Below are positions 34,842-47,866 of a DNA stretch of 64,000 bases, piece by piece. Under the pieces are notes generated by a model. That model ran no database searches, was not told the DNA's origin, and saw nothing but the letters and a program-made list of their open reading frames with translations. The number at the start of each line of letters is the position of its first letter. The first letter of the stretch is position 1. The stretch comes from Candidatus Kerfeldbacteria bacterium (lineage in GTDB: Bacteria; Patescibacteriota; Patescibacteriia; UBA10025; JAHIVO01). The translations under genes were made by a program, and so were the position numbers. Where the stretch lies: positions 600,007-664,006 of the forward strand of contig JACROE010000002.1 in assembly GCA_016214565.1 (NCBI GenBank), read 5' to 3'.

Positions 34842-34913
34842 TCCGGGGTAGCTCAGTGGTAGAGCAGGTGGCTGTTAACCACTTGGTCGCAGGTTCGAAT
34901 CCTGTCCCCGGAG
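34842..34913 (+). tRNA. tRNA-Asn(GUU), copy 1
   Basis: 72 nt; U1-A72, D-arm GCTCAGTGGTAGAGC, anticodon loop CTGTTAA, TTCGAAT T-loop. Confidence 0.8.
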
Positions 34914-35007
34914 CAGAGAATTTTTTATTATCATAAGGTGACTGCTCGCCTCGCTGCGCTTTGGCGAAGCGGGCCTGCCCCGATGTGAGCGGCTGCGAAC
35001 CATCGGG

Positions 35008-36215: not shown

Positions 36216-37088
36216 ATGTCACAAAGTCTCGACGCCCAACAATTAATCCAATCCGCCCAGCGGAATGAAATCACTGAACACTTTATTTATCTCCGCTTAG
36301 CGGCAAGTATGCGGGATGCGCATAATCGTCAGGTACTCGAGCGGATCGCTGCTGACGAACTAGCTCATTATAATTTCTGGAAAGAACGCTCGGGTCAGGA
36401 CATTGCCCCGCGACAGATGATGATTCGTTGGTATGTATTTTTGGGGCGTGTTTTTGGCTTGACCTTTGCGGTGAAACTGATGGAACAGGGTGAAGAGAAA
36501 GCTCAGGCACGCTATGCTTCGAGCGCACAATTAACCCAGATTGATGAACAGATCATCCGCGACGAAGAGCGGCATGAAAGAGAATTGATCGGCATGATCG
36601 ATGAAGAGCGGTTGAAGTACGTGGGCTCAATGGTTCTTGGTTTAAATGACGCCCTTGTTGAATTAACTGGTGCGCTGGCTGGATTTACCCTGACGCTGCA
36701 GCGGACGGACATTATTGCGGTGGTCGGATTAATCACCGGCATTGCCGCGTCATTATCCATGGCAGTGTCGGAATATTTGTCCACTAAATCAGAAGGAGAT
36801 GGTCGGCATCCAGTACGCGCCTCATTATATACGGGCGTGGCGTATGTGATGACCGTGGTTGTCCTGATTTTGCCATTCTTTTTCCTCGAGAATCCGTTTG
36901 TGGCACTGGCGATTTCACTAAGCGCGGCGTTACTGATAATTGCCTTGTTTAATTATTATGTGTCAATTGCCCAAGGATATTCATTCCGCAAACGATTTGT
37001 TGAAATGGCGGGCCTCAGTCTGGGAGTTGCAGCGGTTACGTTTTCCATAGGATTTATTGTCAGTAAATTTTTTAATATTGATGTCTAG
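36216..37088 (+). CDS. membrane-bound ferritin-like/VIT1(CCC1) family protein (MbfA-like iron/manganese transporter)
   Basis: N-terminal rubrerythrin/ferritin-like EExxH-type helices (ELAHYNFW, DEERHEREL) plus C-terminal VIT1 membrane domain. Confidence 0.7.
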   Translation: MSQSLDAQQLIQSAQRNEITEHFIYLRLAASMRDAHNRQVLERIAADELAHYNFWKERSGQDIAPRQMMIRWYVFLGRVFGLTFAVKLMEQGEEKAQARYASSAQLTQIDEQIIRDEERHERELIGMIDEERLKYVGSMVLGLNDALVELTGALAGFTLTLQRTDIIAVVGLITGIAASLSMAVSEYLSTKSEGDGRHPVRASLYTGVAYVMTVVVLILPFFFLENPFVALAISLSAALLIIALFNYYVSIAQGYSFRKRFVEMAGLSLGVAAVTFSIGFIVSKFFNIDV

Positions 37089-38317: not shown

Positions 38318-38391
38318 TCTGGGGTAGTTTAATTTGGTAGAACGCTGCACTGTTAATGCAGATGTTGGAGGTTCGAGTCCTCCCCCCAGAG
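38318..38391 (+). tRNA. tRNA-Asn(GUU), copy 2 (different sequence)
   Basis: 74 nt; U1-A72; TAGTTTAATTTGGTAGAACG D-arm similar to E. coli tRNA-Asn; anticodon loop CTGTTAA; TTCGAGT T-loop. Confidence 0.8.
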
Positions 38392-38489
38392 CTTGTAACG
38401 GAATAATATTGTTTGTTGATAATGAATCCCAAATTGATTGACATTTTTTTGCTAGGTCTCATACTTATAATAGAAAGGAATACATATAT

Positions 38490-38948: not shown

Positions 38949-38978
38949 TTGACAAAATGGGCTGTTTCAGCGTATAGT
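38949..38978 (+). promoter_or_regulatory. sigma70 promoter (TTGACA-18-TATAGT) of the RNHCP/radical-SAM operon
   Basis: Consensus -35, near-consensus -10; shares a 17-nt module with the promoter at 20159. Confidence 0.6.
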
Positions 38979-39034
38979 GTACGGCTCATTGACAATTTAG
39001 TACAATGAGAAACGAAGGAGGTTTTATCGTTCAG

Positions 39035-39343
39035 ATGACCAAACAATTCACACGCACGGTCGAGGATTTTACGTGCGAGCATTGCGGCCATGAGGTTAAG
39101 GGGACAGGGTATACCAACCATTGTCCAGCTTGCTTGTGGTCAAAACATGTCGACGTAAATCCGGGCGATCGTCAAGCCGAGTGTCTCGGTATGATGGAGC
39201 CAATCTCGATCGAGCAAAAGCGTGGCGATTTCGTAATCGTCCAGCGTTGTCAATCGTGCGGTCATGTTCGAAAAAACAAGGCTGCACCAGAGGACGACAT
39301 GGACGAGATCATACGTATCTCGTCGCACGGCATCCAGGGGTAG
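39035..39343 (+). CDS. RNHCP-domain Cys-rich protein (candidate substrate or partner of the downstream radical-SAM enzymes)
   Basis: AAGGAGG RBS; 102 aa with 7 Cys (CxxC...NHCPxC...C...CxxC); NHCPACLWSKHVD matches the RNHCP family signature (from memory); first gene of the operon. Confidence 0.6.
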   Translation: MTKQFTRTVEDFTCEHCGHEVKGTGYTNHCPACLWSKHVDVNPGDRQAECLGMMEPISIEQKRGDFVIVQRCQSCGHVRKNKAAPEDDMDEIIRISSHGIQG

Positions 39344-39424
39344 TAATGTTGCTTATACAGTACTGCCCCTTCGCCTTTTTCTGAAAAGTGATGTTTTTGT
39401 TGATATATCAGAAAGGAGTCCGTC

Positions 39425-40786
39425 GTGGATAAGCAGAAATGTGCTGGATGTGCCGTTGGGTGCGTGCCGTTTGATTCGGTGCCGCATCTGTGTCACATCG
39501 AGACGACTTATCAATGCAATTCGGATTGTATCTTTTGTTACAATCCGGAGCGCGAAAAACCGATCAATACTTCATTGATCGATCGGGTCGTACGATCCGT
39601 GGCTGCCAGTCAGATACCGCATGTGTATCTGATTGGGGGTGAACCGAGTATGCTCGGCGTCGAAAAGCTCAATGAGTACATTGAGCTCCTCAGTGATCAT
39701 TCGTCAGTAACGATCGTTACCAACGGGCGAATCACTCTGCGCGGCATTTCGCCGCGTTTGGCCTGCTTCGGCGTACCGCTCCACGGAGCCACAGCCGAAG
39801 CGCATGATTTCATCACGCGACGACCTCATAGTTTCGATCAAGCGCTTCGCTCGATTGATTACTATGTGGGCCAGGGACATGATGTACGTTGTATTCCGGT
39901 TTTGACGGGGTATAACGCGCATGAGATCTACGATATCATTCGTATTGCCGTGGAACATGGCATGGAATCGATTTTCGTGGATCGGTATGAAGATGGCGGC
40001 ATCGGCGCGCAGCATTCGGTCAATGACCCGCGGTTGAAGCCAACCATGGATCAGTTCCGGGATGCGGTAACGCAGATGTTGCGAGCGCGGGAAGATTTTC
40101 CTCAGCTTGGTGGTCGGGTCGGATTTGGCACGGCCATCCCGTACTGCATTGATGAACGGCTGATTCGGGAAGGCATGACTGCCAATTGTGGCGTGGGGTC
40201 TACATTCTGCGCCATCAACCCATCGGGTGACGTCCGGCTCTGCAACCAATCACAACTGGTGTTTGGTAATGTGTTGCTGGAATCGCTTGAGGCGATTTGG
40301 CAGCAGCGCTCACTCGATACGTTCCGCGATTTGTCGTGGGTCGAGGAGCCGTGCCGCTCGTGTCCGTTGCTGGACGAATGCGTCTGTGGCTGCAAGGTCG
40401 ACGCAAACTGTTCGGATCGATTCTGTATCGATTACGCAGTACGTGGGTTGATCAAGCCGCCCATCGATGTCAGCGTGATACAGCCGACTGCTACCACGGA
40501 GGTTTCGTTTCCTGAAGCCTATCGTCAGTTTTTCGTCAATCGCTACACGAAGATACTCGATCGCCATCCGGAACGATTCTTGGTGACGCGGTATCAGACG
40601 GTGACATTGAATGACGGCGCACTCGAAGTGCTTCGAGCTATCATTGACAAGAGGTTATTGACTGAACAATCGGTCATTACCTATTTTGCCGATGAGATCC
40701 CCGAGCCGGAATTGCGGCGGGCTATCTCGCTGTTTATCCGGGCTGGCGCACTTGATGAAACGGAGGTGACTCATGCCGGTACATGA
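39425..40786 (+). CDS. radical SAM/SPASM-domain enzyme with C-terminal PqqD-like RiPP recognition element
   Basis: GTG start with AAAGGAG RBS; CNSDCIFC (Cx3Cx2C); downstream Cys cluster CRSCPLLDECVCGCK (SPASM/twitch); C-terminal LNDGALEVLRAIIDKRLLTEQSVITYF...LFIRAGAL resembles PqqD/RRE. Confidence 0.75.
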   Translation: MDKQKCAGCAVGCVPFDSVPHLCHIETTYQCNSDCIFCYNPEREKPINTSLIDRVVRSVAASQIPHVYLIGGEPSMLGVEKLNEYIELLSDHSSVTIVTNGRITLRGISPRLACFGVPLHGATAEAHDFITRRPHSFDQALRSIDYYVGQGHDVRCIPVLTGYNAHEIYDIIRIAVEHGMESIFVDRYEDGGIGAQHSVNDPRLKPTMDQFRDAVTQMLRAREDFPQLGGRVGFGTAIPYCIDERLIREGMTANCGVGSTFCAINPSGDVRLCNQSQLVFGNVLLESLEAIWQQRSLDTFRDLSWVEEPCRSCPLLDECVCGCKVDANCSDRFCIDYAVRGLIKPPIDVSVIQPTATTEVSFPEAYRQFFVNRYTKILDRHPERFLVTRYQTVTLNDGALEVLRAIIDKRLLTEQSVITYFADEIPEPELRRAISLFIRAGALDETEVTHAGT

Positions 40787-42260
40787 TGTGCATTGGGAAA
40801 TCACTAACGCGTGCAATCTGCGCTGTTTACACTGTGTTCAGTGTTCAGGTGCGCCACGTACTGGTGAGCTCAATCCGGACGAAGCGGTGCAGATCATCGA
40901 TCGATTAGCAGCAGCAGGCGTGCAGCGTATTTGCTGGACCGGCGGAGAACCGTTTGTCCGGCGTGATTTCGCGACGCTGCTTCAGCAGGCGCATCAGGCA
41001 GGCATTGTGCAAGCCGTCATCACTAACGGGTATCTGGTTCGGCAAGGGCAGCTCATGATGCTTCAGCAATTGGCCATCCCGCTCGGCGTCAGCTTGGATG
41101 CGACGACTGCAGAATTGCATGATGCCCTGCGCGGTGACGGGTCATTTGACCGGGCGATGCAGACGATTGTGTCTGCGCGAGCGCAGGCCATACCCGTAAC
41201 GCTGTATGCAACGGTTACTCGGGGAAATATCCACGAGTTGCCATCGCTCATCGCTCTCGCCAAGCACTTTGATTGCGGTATTCATGTCAATGAAGTGTCA
41301 TTGGCTGGTCGCGCCGAAGCGATTTGGCCCCGTCTGGCACTGAATGAAGCGTTGCGCGAACAGCTGACCGTGATGGTTGCCGATGCAGCCCGCGAGCATT
41401 TCGGTGAAACGCCGGAGTGGGCTCCGGACGGATGCTGGGCTGACGGCTCGGCTGTCTACCTTCGCTCTGATGGTCAAGTGTTCCTCTGCAGTGAGCAGGT
41501 GCAGTATGCACACAGCGCCGCACTGGGGCACATTCTGGAGCATTCACTTGATGAACTGCTTCAGACCGACTTGATCAGTCAGTGTAGTGGCAGCGCATGT
41601 TCGTATCGCGTATTATCAAGTCCGCGCGTGACGATGATTATCAATCAGCCGATCAGGTGCCCGCTGGTTTCCGTTGAGTCGAAGTTAGAAACCCTGGACG
41701 CACTCAATCAGGCACTCGACGCGTTGTATGCGCCGTTTGCCGATGTGTGTGTCGCGTGCCAGGATAAGTGTTGCCAGGGATTCGTCTGGCTGATGCCTGA
41801 GGAATTGACTCGTCTCCAGCAGTGTGAGGTCGATACGGTCGAAGTGAATGACGCCGCGTCGTTCATCCATTCTTTTCCTGAAAAAGAAGACGGTTCAATC
41901 GACGTATCGGTTCCGTCGCCGCTCTGTAGTCAGCTCTGTTCGCTCCAGCCGCGTCGCTGCCGAGTGTATGCCGATCGTCCTTTTTCCTGTCGCCTCTACC
42001 CGATTGGGTTGGAGGTGCGGGAAGATGGCATGCTGGTCTGGGCACTTCATCAGGATTGTCAGATTACTCGATATCTGGGGAGCGAGGGACTGCTCGAGGA
42101 ATTCGAACGGCGAGCGCTGCAGATTCTGGACAGCATGTGTCCGGAATTGTATGCTAGTATTATTGAAGCGTATCGCAAGGTACATATTCTGATAACTTTC
42201 CCCCTTGGGGGAAATAACATTCGCACTTTAAAGGAGGTGGTTAAGCTTGTCAAAGTGTAA
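40773..42260 (+). CDS. radical SAM enzyme fused to a C-terminal YkgJ-type (CxxCxxxCC) Fe-S/zinc-chelating domain
   Basis: 14-nt overlap with the upstream gene; CNLRCLHC (Cx3Cx2C); C-terminal CVACQDKCCQGF...CRVYADRPFSCRLYP resembles the YkgJ/UPF0153 family. Confidence 0.7.
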   Translation: MPVHDVHWEITNACNLRCLHCVQCSGAPRTGELNPDEAVQIIDRLAAAGVQRICWTGGEPFVRRDFATLLQQAHQAGIVQAVITNGYLVRQGQLMMLQQLAIPLGVSLDATTAELHDALRGDGSFDRAMQTIVSARAQAIPVTLYATVTRGNIHELPSLIALAKHFDCGIHVNEVSLAGRAEAIWPRLALNEALREQLTVMVADAAREHFGETPEWAPDGCWADGSAVYLRSDGQVFLCSEQVQYAHSAALGHILEHSLDELLQTDLISQCSGSACSYRVLSSPRVTMIINQPIRCPLVSVESKLETLDALNQALDALYAPFADVCVACQDKCCQGFVWLMPEELTRLQQCEVDTVEVNDAASFIHSFPEKEDGSIDVSVPSPLCSQLCSLQPRRCRVYADRPFSCRLYPIGLEVREDGMLVWALHQDCQITRYLGSEGLLEEFERRALQILDSMCPELYASIIEAYRKVHILITFPLGGNNIRTLKEVVKLVKV

Positions 42261-42370
42261 GGCTGTCTTAGACAGCACAAAAGTGACCAAGATCAATGTC
42301 ACCAAGGGCACGCCGCCCAAAAGCGACAAGACGAAGTAATGGTCAAATAGCCGAAAGGCTACGTATTCAT

Positions 42371-42408
42371 GTGGCGCGTTTGCATTTTTGCAGAGGCGCC
42401 ACTTTTTT
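42371..42408 (+). terminator. rho-independent terminator closing the radical-SAM operon
   Basis: GTGGCGC...GGCGCCAC stem followed by TTTTTT. Confidence 0.6.
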
Positions 42409-44284: not shown

Positions 44285-44342
44285 TTTTAATTTATCCACA
44301 GGCACGCTCATTGGCGGTCTTGTGTTATTTGTGGGTTGTGAT

Positions 44343-44362
44343 ATATTCATAACATTGAATAT
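44343..44362 (+). promoter_or_regulatory. candidate ArsR/SmtB-type operator (ATATTCA-N6-TGAATAT) overlapping the regulator start codon
   Basis: Perfect 7-6-7 inverted repeat immediately at the ATG of the ArsR-family gene. Confidence 0.45.
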
Positions 44363-44834
44363 GTTACCCACCCTATTTCAACCACATAGTCAGCTTTTTA
44401 AGGCTCTCGCCAGTCCAAAACGACTGGAAATTGTGCATTTATTGCGCACTCACTGCATGCGGGTGGAGGAAATTCAGCGCATGACCGGTATGACCCAGGC
44501 AAATGTCAGTCAGCACCTGCAGGTACTGCGCCGGTGTAATGTCGTAGTGCCGCAGCGAACGGGCAAAGCTATTAGTTATTGCTTATCGCATCCCCGTATC
44601 GTCCACGCCCTGGATGACGTGCAGCAAATTTTAGTCGACCGGAAAAAGGTTAATTCGGCGCAGAGTGCCCACAAGACCCGCGTGCCGATCCCCCAAGTGA
44701 TTGATCCGGTCTGCGGCATGTCTATCTCGCCACAAACGGCGGTGCTGATGGCGAATTATCGCCGCTCCACGTATTATTTTTGTGCATCAGGATGCCATGC
44801 AGCATTTACTAAAAAACCAGAACACTATGTATAA
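44361..44834 (+). CDS. ArsR/SmtB-family metalloregulator fused to a C-terminal YHS/TRASH metal-binding domain
   Basis: wHTH (LASPKRLEIVHLL...EIQRMTGMTQANVSQHLQVLR); C-terminal DPVCGMSI...YYFCASGC is YHS/TRASH-like. Confidence 0.65.
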   Translation: MLPTLFQPHSQLFKALASPKRLEIVHLLRTHCMRVEEIQRMTGMTQANVSQHLQVLRRCNVVVPQRTGKAISYCLSHPRIVHALDDVQQILVDRKKVNSAQSAHKTRVPIPQVIDPVCGMSISPQTAVLMANYRRSTYYFCASGCHAAFTKKPEHYV

Positions 44835-45291
44835 GAAAACAATTATTGCGGTTCTTATTTTTTCATTCTTCGGTGTGCTTTTGTCCGGTTATCTTTCATA
44901 TTGGAATCTATTTGGTCCCAGCTGCCACGTCGGCCCCTTGAACTGGTTGGTTTCCTGCGGTGGTCCCGGGAAAGTGTTAATTTTTGGTCAGCCTACCTGC
45001 ATCTATGGTTTTGGCATGTTTTTCAGCGTGATGGTTTTGTCAGTCATTGCGCTGGCCACCCTACCCAAGCGCGGTTTGGTGCGCGCCCTGATGACGCTTG
45101 GCGTAGTTGGCACATTATTTTCGGCGGGTCTTATTATTTATGAAGTGTGGATTCTTAAGCTGGCGTTTACGGGATTGCCCGCATGCGTGTATGGATTTGT
45201 TCTTTACGTTGGCATATTGATATCAAGTGTGCTCGCCAGTCGCTCTTTTCAGACCGCACAATCAACTAACTCTCACAATCAGCCAATATGA
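44827..45291 (+). CDS. integral membrane protein with four conserved Cys (thiol-disulfide oxidoreductase-like, DsbB/VKOR analog?)
   Basis: About 4 TM helices; Cys in periplasmic loops (SCHVGPLNWLVSC, PTCIY, PACVY); family assignment uncertain. Confidence 0.35.
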   Translation: MYKKTIIAVLIFSFFGVLLSGYLSYWNLFGPSCHVGPLNWLVSCGGPGKVLIFGQPTCIYGFGMFFSVMVLSVIALATLPKRGLVRALMTLGVVGTLFSAGLIIYEVWILKLAFTGLPACVYGFVLYVGILISSVLASRSFQTAQSTNSHNQPI

Positions 45292-45659
45292 CCATCGATC
45301 AAATCATTGGTATCCTACTCATCATTCTCGTTATTGCATTTTTTGCACTTTGGCTCAGATTCCAGCGCCGTCAAGAGAAGGCGGATTTCAAAGATAATGC
45401 CCAAGAAATTACGGTGCTGGTCAAAGGCGCCTATGATCCAAATGTGATAACGGTTCGTGCCGGCGTTCCCTTACGCATCCACTTCAATCGGCAAGAAGAC
45501 ACGGATTGTTCGCGGTATGTGACATTTGACGGGCTTAATATACGAAAAGATCTAAAGGCATTTGCCATGACTGATGTTGAATTCACACCAAAAAATCCTG
45601 GTGAAATCTCGTTTACGTGTGATATGGGGATGTATCAGGGAAAAATAATTGTAACCTAA
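45288..45659 (+). CDS. membrane-anchored cupredoxin-like metal-binding protein (C-terminal CDMGMYQG motif)
   Basis: N-terminal TM; domain homologous to the C-terminus of the 47901-49019 protein; 4-nt overlap upstream, 5 nt before copA. Confidence 0.5.
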
Positions 45660-45664
45660 TATAT

Positions 45665-47866
45665 ATGTCATCAAACGAAACTATTATTTCACTCAGGGGC
45701 ATGCACTGTGCCAGTTGTGCCCAGCTTATCGAGCGCCGGTTGCGAAAAGTTCCGGGCGTGGAGCATGCCATGGTTAATTATGGGACAGAGCGGGCGCATG
45801 TGACTCACGCGTCAGATGCCGTCGCCCCTGAACAATTGATCAAAACCGTGGTTGATGCCGGCTACCAGGGGACTATTCTCGATCGAGAACATAACACCGA
45901 AGCAGTCGATAAGGAAAAAGAAATTCAAAAAATCCGTCGTACGTTTTGGATCAGTCTGGTGCTGGCTATTCCGGTTTTGATATTGAGCATGGGGATGAAG
46001 ATTGTACCGCAGATTGAGGAAATTCCATATCGCGAGTGGTTGCAGTTTCTCTTTGCTACCCCGATCCAATTTTGGGCTGGCTGGCAGTTTTATCGAGGGA
46101 CCTGGGGTGCGCTGCGTGCTCGCACGGCTAACATGGATAGCCTGATCGCGCTCGGGACATCGACTGCCTATGTCTATTCATTATTTGTGGTGGGCGGTCT
46201 GATTGATGGCGAGGTTTATTTCGAAATTGGTAGCATCCTGATTGCTTTTGTCTTACTCGGCAAATGGCTCGAGGCGCGGGCGAAAGGCAAGACCAACGAG
46301 GCGATTAAGAAATTGATGGGATTAGCGCCCAAGACTGCCATTGTTATCCGTGATGGCGTCGAACAGGAGATTGCCCTGGATATGGTGCAGGTTGGCGATG
46401 TAATACGCGTCAAACCAGGGGCTAAAATCCCGGTGGATGGCACGGTCGCTGAAGGATCTTCTTCAGTGGATGAGTCTATGGTGACGGGAGAAAGCATTCC
46501 CGTGGAGAAGCATGCAGGTGATCCAGTTATTGGTGGCACCCTGAATATCCACGGGTCATTTACTTTTACCGCAACGAAGGTCGGGAAAGAAACGTTGCTC
46601 GCCGGCATTATACAGCTCGTAGAGCAGGCACAAGCATCAAAAGCGCCGATCCAGCGATTTGCCGATCGAGTCTCAGCTTATTTTGTGCCGACGGTTATTG
46701 CTATTTCTTTGATAACATTTATATCGTGGTATTTCTTGGCTGGTCAGGATTTCGTTTCTAGTTTATTAGCCTTTGTGGCCGTACTGGTGATTGCTTGCCC
46801 CTGCGCACTCGGCTTGGCTACTCCAACGGCCATTATTACCGGCACGGGGTTAGGCGCGAGCCATGGCATCCTGATCAAGGGCGGGGAAGCACTTGAGGCA
46901 GCGCGGAAAATTGATACTGTCGTATTTGATAAAACCGGCACCCTGACCCACGGCAAACCAGATGTCACTGATATTCACGCCACGAATCGAGGTCAGGAAC
47001 AGTACGTACTGACGGTCGCTGCTTCACTGGAGAAACAATCAGAGCATCCGCTCGCAGAAGCAATCGTGCGGAAAGCGCACGAGGAGCAGTTCGCCTTGTT
47101 TCCTGTTATTGATTTCGCGGCAGTCCCCGGGCATGGCGTGAAAGGCGTGATCGACGACAAACCAGTGTATCTGGGGAATCGGAAGTTAATGAAACAGATT
47201 GGCGTATCCTACGTTGAGGCCAGCGAGGCAATCGATGCGCTGGAGCATCAGGGTAAAACAGTTATGCTGTTAGCCGTCGGTAAAGCCCACGTTGGATTTA
47301 TTGCCGTGGCTGATACGGTGAAAGAAAGTTCCCGTGAAGCAATCACCGCATTACAGAAAATCGGTATTGGTGTACTGATGATCACCGGTGATAATGCACA
47401 GACCGCCCAAGCGATTGCCCAGCAGGTGGGCATCACTCGAGTGCTATCTGAAGTATTACCAAAAGATAAAGCGCACGAAGTAGTGGAATTGCAGCGGACC
47501 GGCGCACGGGTTGCTTTTGTCGGAGATGGCATTAATGACGCACCAGCGTTGGCTCAAGCGGATTTGGGAATCGCTATCGGCTCAGGCACGGATGTGGCAC
47601 TGGAAACCGGACAAATGGTTCTTGTTAAAAATGATTTACGCGACGTGGTGCGCGGTATCAGTTTATCCCGTCGCACATTTCGAAAAATTGTGCAGAATCT
47701 ATTTTGGGCATTAATTTATAATGTTGCAGGCATTCCTATTGCCGCGGGAGTCTTCTTCCCCATTTTTGGTTGGCAATTGCGGCCAGAATTGGCGGGAGCG
47801 GCGATGGCATTATCCAGTATCTCAGTGGTTTTGAATTCGTTATTATTAAAACGATGGCGACCATGA
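45665..47866 (+). CDS. copA: copper-translocating P1B-type ATPase
   Basis: N-terminal HMA (GMHCASCA), CPC transmembrane metal site, DKTGTLT phosphorylation motif, GDGINDAP hinge. Confidence 0.95.

What the first reader, a model, noticed from the sequence alone, without database searches (positions are those of the whole stretch)
38949..42408. Compact three-gene operon: RNHCP Cys-rich protein plus two coupled radical-SAM enzymes (candidate uncharacterised RiPP-like maturation system)
A single consensus promoter (TTGACA-18-TATAGT) and a terminator at 42371-42408 bracket three genes. They are:
- a 102-aa protein with 7 Cys and the NHCP signature;
- a radical-SAM/SPASM enzyme carrying a PqqD-like RRE;
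- a second radical-SAM enzyme overlapping the first by 14 nt and fused to a YkgJ-type CxxCxxxCC domain.
Two rSAMs, a SPASM auxiliary-cluster domain and an RRE are the hallmarks of peptide-modifying RiPP pathways. I do not recognise this gene combination as one of the named rSAM/SPASM systems (SCIFF, Hxs, mycofactocin, PQQ and others). The block follows a tRNA-Asn and an AT-rich stretch, which is consistent with accessory DNA.
Basis: partly seen in the sequence, partly recalled or inferred. Interest (0 to 1): 0.85.

Follow-up and report, generated by a model that had tools for sequence, protein, structure and literature searches.

The report
Radical-SAM peptide-maturation operon with hidden precursor gene

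Summary

The operon has four genes, not three. An uncalled ORF at 42247-42339 (TTG start, strong SD) encodes MSKCKAVLDSTKVTKINVTKGTPPKSDKTK.

- **Linkage.** The same peptide lies beside the rSAM1-RRE and CxxCxxCC genes in about 30 loci from many Patescibacteria, a gut Firmicutes bin and Theionarchaea-like archaea.
- **Family.** At least 101 representatives exist, with no Pfam or NCBIfam model and no literature.
- **RNHCP.** It is mostly a solo gene elsewhere (47 solo, 10 linked), absent from the archaeal loci, and once fused to rSAM1. It therefore looks like an accessory subunit, not the substrate.
- **Optional module.** The radical-SAM half of rSAM2 is absent in five locus types. There, peptide position 7 is never Val or Ile; it is always Val or Ile where the domain is present.

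Best reading: a new RiPP-type or peptide-derived-cofactor maturation system acting on the invariant N-terminal MSKC...D core. The chemistry is unknown. No named rSAM system's cut-off is reached.

The parts
38949..38978 (+). Sigma-70-type promoter, TTGACA-18-TATAGT
   Evidence: Best-scoring site in the scan, 11/12. The -35 hexamer, and a -10 at the same spacing, are conserved in L001-L003.
38985..39009 (+). Conserved inverted repeat CTCATTG-N11-CAATGAG between the -10 and the RBS. Candidate operator or 5'-UTR hairpin.
   Evidence: Nearly invariant in four otherwise divergent upstream regions. Unique in the window; about 0.01 matches expected by chance. Also present in L001, L002, L003 and L088. 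No Rfam match.
39035..39343 (+). RNHCP zinc-ribbon protein, 102 aa, 7 Cys. Proposed accessory subunit.
   Evidence: PF12647 at E=3e-31, plus sub-threshold rubredoxin-like hits. SD AAGGAGG upstream. Invariant GYTNHCPxCLWSKHVDxNPGDR motif. Fused to rSAM1 in P0349.
39338..39368 (+). Weak hairpin followed by a U-rich tract between RNHCP and rSAM1. Possible partial attenuator.
   Evidence: RNA fold of 39338-39430, z=-2.2. Speculative.
39425..40786 (+). rSAM1: radical SAM (CxxxCxxC at C31/C35/C38), full SPASM and a C-terminal RRE. 453 aa, GTG start.
   Evidence: Pfam Radical_SAM and SPASM. CX2CX5CX3C and other SPASM cysteines are invariant. Nearest solved structure is PqqE, E=7e-10. 55-82% identical across bacteria and archaea.
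40478..40783 (+). RRE (PqqD-like winged-helix) domain of rSAM1, residues ~352-453
   Evidence: AF2 model with pLDDT 85.7: four strands, three helices and a short final strand. All top Foldseek PDB hits are RRE domains: McbB, TruD/LynD, TbiB1, PbtF, TigE, MccB, PqqD, CteB. Pfam PqqD is only weak, in 3 of 20 homologues.
40773..41672 (+). rSAM2 radical-SAM core with a partial, twitch-like auxiliary-cluster region. Optional module of the system.
   Evidence: Pfam Radical_SAM at 5e-21; SPASM matches only its first half. The family profile's best solved relative is SkfB, E=8e-33. Absent in L174, L177-L180 and L182.
41673..42260 (+). CxxCxxCC (YkgJ-type, PF03692) cysteine-cluster domain fused to rSAM2
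   Evidence: 25.2 bits vs cut-off 23 when scanned alone. Elsewhere it is stand-alone (L015, L103, L178-L182, archaea), fused to rSAM1 (P0253, P0286, P0317), or fused to the peptide (P0429).
42231..42239 (+). Shine-Dalgarno AAGGAGGTG of the peptide gene, inside the end of rSAM2
   Evidence: Sequence. A GGAGG-type SD lies at the same distance in 18 of the 21 distinct versions; L006, L008 and L093 have weaker purine-rich sites.
42247..42339 (+). Unannotated precursor-peptide gene, 30 aa, TTG start: MSKCKAVLDSTKVTKINVTKGTPPKSDKTK
   Evidence: ORF. The same peptide is found in ~30 loci beside rSAM1 and CxxCxxCC. Codon-position differences of 0.25/0.17/0.60 indicate coding selection. 101 family representatives. 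This exact sequence is not in the protein collection.
42371..42408 (+). Intrinsic terminator: hairpin 42371-42402 plus U-run
   Evidence: Fold of -33.3 kcal/mol, z=-6.4. A GC-rich hairpin plus T-run follows the peptide gene in most bacterial loci.

Best explanation
This is a four-gene peptide-maturation cassette: RNHCP, rSAM1(SPASM+RRE), rSAM2::CxxCxxCC and the MSKC peptide. It has one promoter and one terminator.

Shown:
- The small peptide gene is the universal partner of rSAM1-RRE and the CxxCxxCC domain.
- rSAM1 carries an RRE fold.
- RNHCP, the CxxCxxCC domain and the two rSAM cores occur as alternative fusions.
- The radical-SAM half of rSAM2 co-varies with Val/Ile at peptide position 7.

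Inferred mechanism:
- The RRE of rSAM1 binds the peptide. The likely contact is the amphipathic beta-strand-like segment around residues 11-21 (K[IV]xx[IL]x[VI]KxK), which would act as a follower-type recognition sequence.
- rSAM1, working with the CxxCxxCC domain, performs the core radical modification on the invariant N-terminal MSKC...D segment. The most plausible reaction is a Cys4-based thioether or other cross-link, for example to Asp9, as in Cys-Asp ranthipeptides.
- Where present, the SkfB/StsB-like radical-SAM core of rSAM2 adds a second modification at or next to Val7.
- RNHCP is a metal-binding accessory subunit recruited from a widespread stand-alone family. Its most likely role is iron or electron donor (or chaperone) for the Fe-S enzymes, not substrate.
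- No protease or exporter is encoded, and the core is extremely conserved. The product may therefore act inside the cell.
For: Peptide gene:
- It is found in the window and in ~30 loci, always next to rSAM1-RRE and CxxCxxCC. Its position is rearranged in archaea, where it lies upstream of rSAM1.
- It has an SD, a start codon and a terminator. Third-codon-position variation indicates coding selection.
- The family has 101 representatives, nearly all 28-57 aa and starting MSKC.

RRE: fold shown.

Asymmetric linkage of RNHCP:
- 47 solo vs 10 linked in the metagenome sample, with no conserved neighbour for the solo copies.
- Absent from the archaeal loci.
- Fused to rSAM1 in P0349.

Domain shuffling: rSAM1::CxxCxxCC (P0253, P0286, P0317), a split rSAM2 and CxxCxxCC::peptide (P0429).

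Position-7 correlation: five locus types without the rSAM2 core have PT, PG, AS, PS or AT at positions 6-7. About 19 distinct loci with the core all have AV, or AI once.

Nearest enzymes:
- rSAM2's nearest characterised relatives are thioether-forming sactipeptide maturases: SkfB at E=8e-33 and StsB at 121 bits.
- rSAM1's nearest are MftC and PqqE.

RNHCP metal site: residues 10-37 give sub-threshold hits to rubrerythrin and rubredoxin-like Fe(Cys)4 domains.

Precedents: PapB makes Cys-Asp/Glu thioethers (PMC9413430). Dph3 is a small Cys4 protein that supplies iron and electrons to a radical-SAM-type enzyme (PMC8251694).
Against: - There is no experimental evidence that the peptide is made or modified.
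- The recognition segment, the modified residues and the chemistry are all inferred.
- Asp9 is not strictly invariant. A few representatives have A, E or N there.
- A core N-terminal to the recognition segment is unusual for RRE-dependent systems.
- The RRE fold hits have modest E-values (5e-3 to 0.2) and rest on a predicted model. Pfam PqqD misses the window protein.
- The electron-donor role of RNHCP rests on sub-threshold similarity and analogy. Its invariant polar motif (NH...SKHVD..PGDR) hints at some other activity, and its fold search was uninformative.
- The position-7 correlation involves related sequences, so the number of independent events is smaller than the counts suggest.
Confidence: 0.6

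Rival explanations
1. The 102-aa RNHCP protein is itself the substrate: a small Cys-rich protein cross-linked or otherwise modified by the two rSAMs, as QhpD modifies QhpC or anSME modifies sulfatases. On this view the small peptide is incidental.
For: RNHCP is the first gene of the cassette in every bacterial locus with enough upstream flank. Linked RNHCPs resemble each other more than they resemble solo copies: the nearest neighbour is another linked copy in 22 of 25 cases. They more often keep a C-terminal LSS tail. SPASM enzymes that modify folded small proteins are known (from memory: QhpD, anSME).
Against: About 80% or more of RNHCP genes are solo, with no rSAM nearby. Archaeal loci keep rSAM1, rSAM2, CxxCxxCC and the peptide but have no RNHCP. 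RNHCP occurs fused to the N-terminus of rSAM1, which is typical of a domain or subunit, not a substrate. No residue cleanly distinguishes linked from solo copies. An RRE binds extended peptides, whereas RNHCP is predicted to be a folded zinc ribbon plus beta-sheet.
Confidence: 0.1
2. The cassette makes a peptide-derived small molecule or redox cofactor, analogous to PQQ or mycofactocin, from the invariant N-terminal residues of the peptide. It is not a mature modified peptide. RNHCP could be a carrier, user or helper of that product.
For: Both the peptide core (MSKC invariant in the 18 aligned cassette-linked copies, Cys4 in every family member) and rSAM1 (55-82% identity between bacteria and archaea) are unusually conserved. 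rSAM1's best family and structure matches are MftC and PqqE. No exporter, immunity gene or leader peptidase lies in the operon. The system occurs in genome-reduced organisms.
Against: No conserved peptidase or oxidoreductase to excise or finish a cofactor is found. MftC and PqqE scores are far below their cut-offs (75 vs 265; 63 vs 381). No candidate cofactor-dependent enzyme is linked. The system is patchily distributed rather than universal in any lineage.
Confidence: 0.15
3. The rSAM enzymes act on a non-peptide substrate such as a lipid, nucleotide or cofactor. The small ORF would then be a co-transcribed basic mini-protein with another role, and the RRE-like domain a generic winged helix.
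For: Archaeal loci carry a PEMT-family methyltransferase and B12-rSAMs. The rSAM2 profile also hits MoaA, viperin and tetraether-lipid synthase. The sequence-level RRE signal is weak.
Against: The fold hits are exclusively RiPP RREs. The peptide gene is inseparable from the enzymes through rearrangements and fusions, including a CxxCxxCC::peptide fusion. A peptide residue co-varies with an enzyme module.
Confidence: 0.08

Closest known systems
Sactipeptide and ranthipeptide maturation (SkfB, StsB, CteB, PapB): rSAM/SPASM-twitch thioether-forming RiPP maturases
   Same: A radical SAM core with auxiliary-cluster domain, an RRE, and a short Cys-containing precursor encoded next to the enzyme. The rSAM2 family profile hits SkfB at E=8e-33 and StsB at 121 bits. 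The invariant Cys with a nearly invariant downstream Asp recalls the Cys-Asp links made by PapB (PMC9413430).
   Different: Scores are far below the family cut-offs (SkfB 89 vs 300; StsB 121 vs 625). The RRE is C-terminal and sits on the other enzyme, rSAM1. The precursor has a single Cys at position 4 of an N-terminal conserved core and a variable C-terminal tail. Two extra conserved partners (RNHCP, CxxCxxCC) have no counterpart. No protease or exporter is present.
Mycofactocin (MftA/B/C) and PQQ (PqqA/D/E) cofactor pathways
   Same: An rSAM/SPASM enzyme plus a PqqD-type RRE act on a very short, highly conserved peptide. These are rSAM1's best NCBIfam and PDB matches. The system appears intracellular and lacks an exporter.
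   Different: Not orthologous (75 vs 265 bits and 63 vs 381 bits). The RRE is fused at the C-terminus of the rSAM. The conserved residues are N-terminal MSKC...D, not C-terminal GVY or E-x3-Y. None of the downstream enzymes (MftD/E/F, PqqB/C/F) are present.
Dph3/Kti11 with Dph1-Dph2
   Same: A small Cys4 metal-binding protein that serves a radical-SAM-type enzyme as iron and electron donor (PMC8251694). This is a precedent for the role proposed for RNHCP. RNHCP's first Cys4 knuckle pair gives sub-threshold rubredoxin-like hits.
   Different: No sequence or fold relationship was shown. RNHCP has a second Cys3(+His) site and a distinctive invariant polar motif. The analogy is functional only and is untested.
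YkgJ / FliB family (PF03692, CxxCxxCC)
   Same: The C-terminal 195 aa of rSAM2 pass the Pfam cut-off, with the same cysteine pattern.
   Different: The family is functionally obscure. From memory, FliB is annotated as a flagellin lysine methylase. No link to rSAM peptide maturation was found in the literature searched. Here the domain is an obligate partner of an rSAM-RRE enzyme and lies next to, or is fused with, the precursor.

Membership tests
Radical SAM superfamily (PF04055) | CxxxCxxC cluster motif and a TIM-barrel core matching the family model above its cut-off | tested here: met
   rSAM1 scores 56.2 bits and rSAM2 75.9 bits against a cut-off of 29.5. The motifs C31/C35/C38 and C14/C18/C21 are conserved in both families: all invariant in rSAM1, and at least 90% conserved in rSAM2, where one N-terminally truncated sequence lacks them.
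SPASM domain (PF13186 / TIGR04085) | Seven-Cys motif including CX2CX5CX3C, which binds two auxiliary 4Fe-4S clusters | tested here: met
   rSAM1 scores 41.2 bits against a cut-off of 21.5. C310-x2-C313-x5-C319-x3-C323 and C334 are invariant.
SPASM domain (PF13186), for rSAM2 | The full seven-Cys motif | tested here: inconclusive
   22.2 bits, matching only model positions 1-49 of 67. Conserved C221, C239, C276 and C296 are present, but there is no CX2CX5CX3C. This looks like a twitch-like partial domain.
RRE / PqqD-like domain (PF05402) | Three-stranded sheet plus three-helix winged-helix fold that binds precursor peptides | tested here: met
   Met at the fold level. The AF2 model (pLDDT 85.7) matches only RRE domains at the top of the PDB search, with probability 0.9-1.0 and TM 0.5-0.6. 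At the sequence level the window protein has no PqqD hit, and only 3 of 20 homologues hit weakly. Peptide binding is not testable here.
RNHCP domain (PF12647) | Match to the family model above its cut-off, with the NHCP motif | tested here: met
   107.7 bits against a cut-off of 24. TNHCP is at residues 27-31.
CxxCxxCC / YkgJ family (PF03692) | Match above the gathering score, with the conserved cysteine pattern | tested here: met
   The isolated domain scores 25.2 against a cut-off of 23. As part of the full-length protein it scores 20.9, below the cut-off. Homologues are flagged PF03692.
Named rSAM systems: mycofactocin MftC, PqqE, SkfB, StsB, HxsC, AlbA, SCM, GeoRSP, ACGX, DynA, WgkB | Score at or above the NCBIfam equivalog cut-off | tested here: not met
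   All are far below their cut-offs, for example MftC 75/121 vs 265, PqqE 63/77 vs 381, SkfB 89 vs 300, StsB 121 vs 625 and HxsC 57/61 vs 268.
RiPP biosynthetic cluster (generic) | A short precursor gene adjacent to modifying enzymes that carry an RRE | tested here: met
   The peptide gene at 42247-42339 is linked to rSAM1-RRE in ~30 loci.
RiPP biosynthetic cluster (generic) | Leader peptidase, exporter or immunity genes | tested here: not met
   None is found in the window, and none is conserved across loci.
Sactipeptide / ranthipeptide class | A Cys sulfur-to-carbon thioether in the mature peptide | not testable with these tools
   This needs MS/MS or NMR of the modified peptide.
Known precursor-peptide families (NCBIfam, Pfam) | Match of the peptide to any curated model | tested here: not met
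   None of 8 peptides matched in NCBIfam at E<=10. Pfam gave only chance-level hits. Database names are only 'hypothetical protein' or 'unknown'.

The most novel reading that the evidence does not exclude
The MSKC peptide is the scaffold for a previously unknown peptide-derived cofactor or small molecule. It would be made by a four-part Fe-S machine (rSAM1-RRE, CxxCxxCC protein, optional rSAM2, RNHCP) shared by genome-reduced Patescibacteria, some gut Bacillota and archaea. RNHCP would be a new class of dedicated iron or electron donor for radical-SAM enzymes in organisms that lack the usual reductants.
Probability: 0.15. Interest if true: 0.85.

Novelty: new variant of a known kind. Interest (0 to 1): 0.62.

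Why it matters
Patescibacteria (CPR) have tiny genomes and almost no recognised secondary metabolism. Yet many lineages keep a four-component radical-SAM system built around an extremely conserved mini-peptide. So do Theionarchaea-like archaea and a human-gut Firmicutes bin, where the peptide was seen on 69 contigs.

The finding does four things:
- It defines a new precursor family (MSKCKAVLD...).
- It assigns a first functional context to two orphan domains, RNHCP and CxxCxxCC/YkgJ.
- It yields a testable division of labour: rSAM1 acts on the Cys4 core and rSAM2 near Val7.
- It shows that gene callers miss the key gene. The window's copy uses TTG and overlaps the upstream gene.

If the product is a cofactor or an intracellular effector, it would bear on the physiology of episymbiotic bacteria.

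Tried and rejected
- **Predicted RNHCP:rSAM1 complex.** I built a block alignment of the natural fusion P0349 with RNHCP and rSAM1 homologues. MAFFT misplaced the RNHCP rows onto the SPASM cysteines, so I dropped it and modelled the RRE domain and RNHCP separately.
- **Sequence-only tests of the RRE.** Pfam gave only weak PqqD hits (3 of 20) and DUF7020 hits (4 of 20). A PDB profile search gave nothing relevant.
- **RNHCP fold search against PDB.** Only zinc-knuckle fragments matched, all at E>0.19.
- **Residue distinguishing linked from solo RNHCPs.** None was clean. Position 51 and the C-terminal LSS tail differ only in frequency.
- **Conserved neighbours of solo RNHCP genes.** None found.
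- **Other conserved genes in the cassette.** An all-vs-all search of ORFs returned mostly shadow ORFs, but it led to the peptide gene.
- **Defence-system membership.** PADLOC gave only generic viperin-like rSAM similarity.
- **Rfam.** Only the tRNA matched.
- **Integration signature at tRNA-Asn.** No repeat found.
- **Literature.** Nothing relevant on RNHCP, SKCKAV, YkgJ/CxxCxxCC or CPR RiPPs.
- **Uninformative loci.** L176 and L181 were too short to judge.
- **Peptide profile search.** It was repeated with permitted rows.

Full report
**Organism and observation.** The window comes from a Candidatus Kerfeldbacteria (Patescibacteria/CPR) MAG; rSAM1 and rSAM2 have 100% hits named as such.
- The promoter TTGACA-18-TATAGT at 38949-38978 is the best promoter-like site in the region.
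- RNHCP at 39035-39343 encodes 102 aa with 7 Cys and matches PF12647 at E=3e-31.
- rSAM1 at 39425-40786 (GTG start, SD AAGGAG) matches Radical_SAM and SPASM.
- rSAM2 at 40773-42260 overlaps rSAM1 by 14 nt. It matches Radical_SAM, a partial SPASM, and a C-terminal CxxCxxCC domain. That domain passes Pfam's cut-off when scanned alone (25.2 vs 23 bits) but not in the full-length protein (20.9 bits).
- The terminator at 42371-42408 was missed by the simple scan because of its long loop. It folds very stably (-33.3 kcal/mol, z=-6.4) and is followed by a U-run.
- No NCBIfam equivalog comes near its cut-off for any of the proteins.

**Synteny.** I scanned one genome per species with a profile of the 21 full-length rSAM2 relatives. 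This gave 16 loci carrying a close rSAM2 relative: 15 full-length, and L016 cut off at the contig end.
- tblastn shows RNHCP-rSAM1-rSAM2 in the same order in 14 of them.
- In one further locus, RNHCP-rSAM1 lies divergent to rSAM2.
- One archaeal-type locus has no RNHCP.
- The hosts are diverse Patescibacteria (Magasanikbacteria, Taylorbacteria, Microgenomates, bins labelled Saccharibacteria and others) plus 'Firmicutes bacterium CAG:822'.

**The RRE claim.** rSAM1 is unusually conserved, at 55-82% identity even to archaeal copies. It has a complete SPASM cysteine set and a conserved C-terminal ~100-residue domain. Sequence methods barely see a PqqD relationship. An AlphaFold2 model of that domain is confident (pLDDT 85.7). 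It has four short strands followed by three helices and a short final strand. Its best PDB matches are exclusively RiPP recognition elements: McbB, TruD/LynD, lasso B1 proteins, the PbtF RRE, TigE, MccB, PqqD and CteB. I accept the RRE at the fold level.

**The missed gene.** I clustered all ORFs of the linked loci and inspected the end of the operon. This revealed a small ORF at 42247-42339.
- It has a TTG start and the SD AAGGAGGTG at 42231-42239. Its start lies 14 nt before the end of rSAM2.
- It encodes MSKCKAVLDSTKVTKINVTKGTPPKSDKTK.
- The same peptide directly follows rSAM2 or the CxxCxxCC gene in every bacterial locus with enough flank. Its form is M-S-K-C-K-A-V-L-D-[GS]-x-K-[IV]-x-x-[IL]-x-[VI]-K-x-K followed by a variable hydrophilic tail, 20-56 aa in all.
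- In the Theionarchaea-like loci it lies upstream of rSAM1.
- The DNA versions differ mainly at third codon positions: pairwise differences are 0.25, 0.17 and 0.60 for positions 1, 2 and 3.
- Of the 21 versions, 18 have a GGAGG-type SD and an ATG, GTG or TTG start; the other three have only weaker purine-rich sites or no listed start. Most bacterial copies are followed by a hairpin plus T-run. This is a coding gene, not an RNA element, and Rfam finds nothing.
- A profile search of 1.84 billion representatives finds 101 family members. Nearly all are 28-57 aa and start MSKC.
- Cys4 is invariant in every member listed, and the N-terminal MSK is nearly so (one member has Gly at position 2, and one extra archaeal copy has Ala). 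Asp9 is nearly invariant.
- There is no Pfam or NCBIfam model. Database names are only 'hypothetical protein'. The window's own copy is not in the protein collection, so it was never called. No paper in the library mentions it.

**Architecture and fusions.** Across ~30 loci the order is RNHCP, rSAM1core-RRE, [rSAM2core], CxxCxxCC, peptide. Several fusions and splits tie the parts together.
- P0349 is RNHCP::rSAM1.
- P0253, P0286 and P0317 are rSAM1::CxxCxxCC. In L174 the operon is RNHCP, that fusion, then the peptide.
- rSAM2 is split into separate rSAM and CxxCxxCC genes in L014, L015 and L103.
- P0429 is CxxCxxCC::peptide.
- Extra B12-rSAM or rSAM/SPASM genes occur in L009, L175 and the archaeal loci.
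- The radical-SAM half of rSAM2 is absent in five locus types (L174, L177, L178/179, L180, L182). In exactly these, peptide positions 6-7 read PT, PG, AS, PS or AT. All ~19 distinct loci that have the domain read AV, or AI once. Allowing for relatedness, this still points to rSAM2 acting at or near Val7. It also points to rSAM1 plus the CxxCxxCC domain as the core machinery.

**RNHCP.** The family is very large (2415 clusters) and highly conserved, with an invariant GYTNHCPxCLWSKHVDxNPGDR motif and seven cysteines.
- I sampled 80 metagenomic RNHCP loci, chosen as those most similar to the window's linked copy. Of these, 10 are followed by rSAM1, 47 are clearly solo and 23 cannot be judged.
- Solo copies have no conserved neighbour.
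- No residue cleanly separates linked from solo copies. Linked copies do resemble each other more than they resemble solo ones.
- The archaeal loci have the enzymes and the peptide but no RNHCP.
- The AF2 model (pLDDT 74) shows zinc knuckles, a three-stranded sheet and a C-terminal helix. It has no informative PDB match.
- Residues 10-37 give sub-threshold hits to rubredoxin-like Fe(Cys)4 domains of rubrerythrin.
- Together with the fusion to rSAM1, this fits an accessory subunit recruited from a general-purpose family. I suggest an iron or electron donor by analogy with Dph3 (PMC8251694). That step is inference only.

**Mechanism.**
- Shown: the gene set, the linkage, the RRE fold, the fusions and the position-7 correlation.
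- Inferred: the RRE binds the amphipathic segment at residues 11-21.
- Inferred: rSAM1, which is closest to MftC and PqqE, modifies the invariant N-terminal core around Cys4 together with the CxxCxxCC domain.
- Inferred: rSAM2, which is closest to the thioether-forming SkfB and StsB, modifies the Val7 region.
- A Cys4-Asp9 thioether of the PapB type (PMC9413430) is one plausible reaction, but a few family members lack Asp9.
- The operon encodes no protease or exporter, and the core is extremely conserved. An intracellular product, possibly a peptide-derived cofactor, therefore remains open.

**Context.** The flanks are housekeeping genes.
- Upstream lie rpoD, tRNA-Asn, a VIT1-family gene, a CsaA-like tRNA-binding protein, a DedA/VTT protein, a second and divergent tRNA-Asn, and a small membrane protein.
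- Downstream lie TypA/BipA and a copper-handling cluster.
- No integrase or att-like repeat is present.
- A relative (L002) shares the upstream csaA-DedA context.
- The cassette is GC-richer (52-58%) than its surroundings (38-49%).
- Whether the block is accessory DNA cannot be decided.
- A 25-nt inverted repeat, CTCATTG-N11-CAATGAG at 38985-39009, lies between the -10 and the RBS. It is nearly invariant in the window's clade and is a candidate operator or 5'-UTR hairpin.

**Verdict.** This is an uncharacterised rSAM/SPASM-RRE maturation system. Its likely substrate is a hidden, highly conserved mini-peptide rather than RNHCP. It is a new variant of a known kind, with two orphan-domain partners and an unusual N-terminal core.

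Noticed in passing
window 38985-39009: A perfect 7-bp inverted repeat (CTCATTG-N11-CAATGAG) lies just downstream of the -10. It is nearly invariant in WIN, L001, L002, L003 and L088, while the surrounding upstream DNA diverges. It is a candidate repressor operator or 5'-UTR hairpin, is unique in the window, and has no Rfam match.
   Followed up: partly
window 34842-34914 and 38318-38392: Two tRNA-Asn(GTT) genes lie 3.4 kb apart and are only about 70% identical. The one next to the cassette is AT-richer. No att-like repeat of its 3' end is found elsewhere in the window.
   Followed up: partly
window 36216-37088; L001 1842-2543; L174 3621-4502: A VIT1-family (iron transporter-like) gene recurs within a few kb upstream of the cassette in three loci; in L174 it also gives a faint rubrerythrin hit. 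This may be coincidence, or a link to the iron supply for a Fe-S-rich system.
   Followed up: no
L085-L087 (5001-6776): RNHCP + rSAM1 occur without a CxxCxxCC domain, rSAM2 or the peptide. The rSAM1 RRE region is degenerate and the locus is flanked by IS200-type Y1 transposase genes. It looks like a decaying remnant of the cassette.
   Followed up: partly
L009 5295-6647; L175 4746-6059; L171 1-2296 and 6395-7720: Some loci carry extra tailoring-type genes. A B12-binding rSAM is inserted between RNHCP and rSAM1 in L009 and lies after the peptide in L175. The archaeal loci add a third rSAM/SPASM, a PEMT-family methyltransferase and a second stand-alone CxxCxxCC protein.
   Followed up: partly
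P0429 (224 aa): A predicted protein in which a stand-alone CxxCxxCC domain runs in frame into the MSKCKAVLD peptide. This may be a natural enzyme-substrate fusion or a lost stop codon.
   Followed up: no
window 39425-39490 (rSAM1 N-terminus) vs homologues: Most rSAM1 homologues have a conserved ~30-residue N-terminal extension (DWSPVxTVxCxYRSxGRREDGKYV). The window's clade has instead a short CxxCxxxC motif (KCAGCAVGC).
   Followed up: no
L013 (Firmicutes bacterium CAG:822); peptide P0371: The cassette also occurs in a human-gut Firmicutes bin. Its 30-aa peptide was seen on 69 contigs, so the system is not confined to groundwater CPR.
   Followed up: no
window 44322-47866: A copper or heavy-metal handling cluster lies downstream of typA. 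It comprises an ArsR-family regulator fused to a YHS domain, a VKOR-like protein (just below the Pfam cut-off), a cupredoxin-like protein and a P-type ATPase with an HMA domain.
   Followed up: no
window 39000-42200 vs flanks: The cassette has 52-58% GC. The stretch just upstream has 38-44% and the downstream genes have 45-50%.
   Followed up: partly
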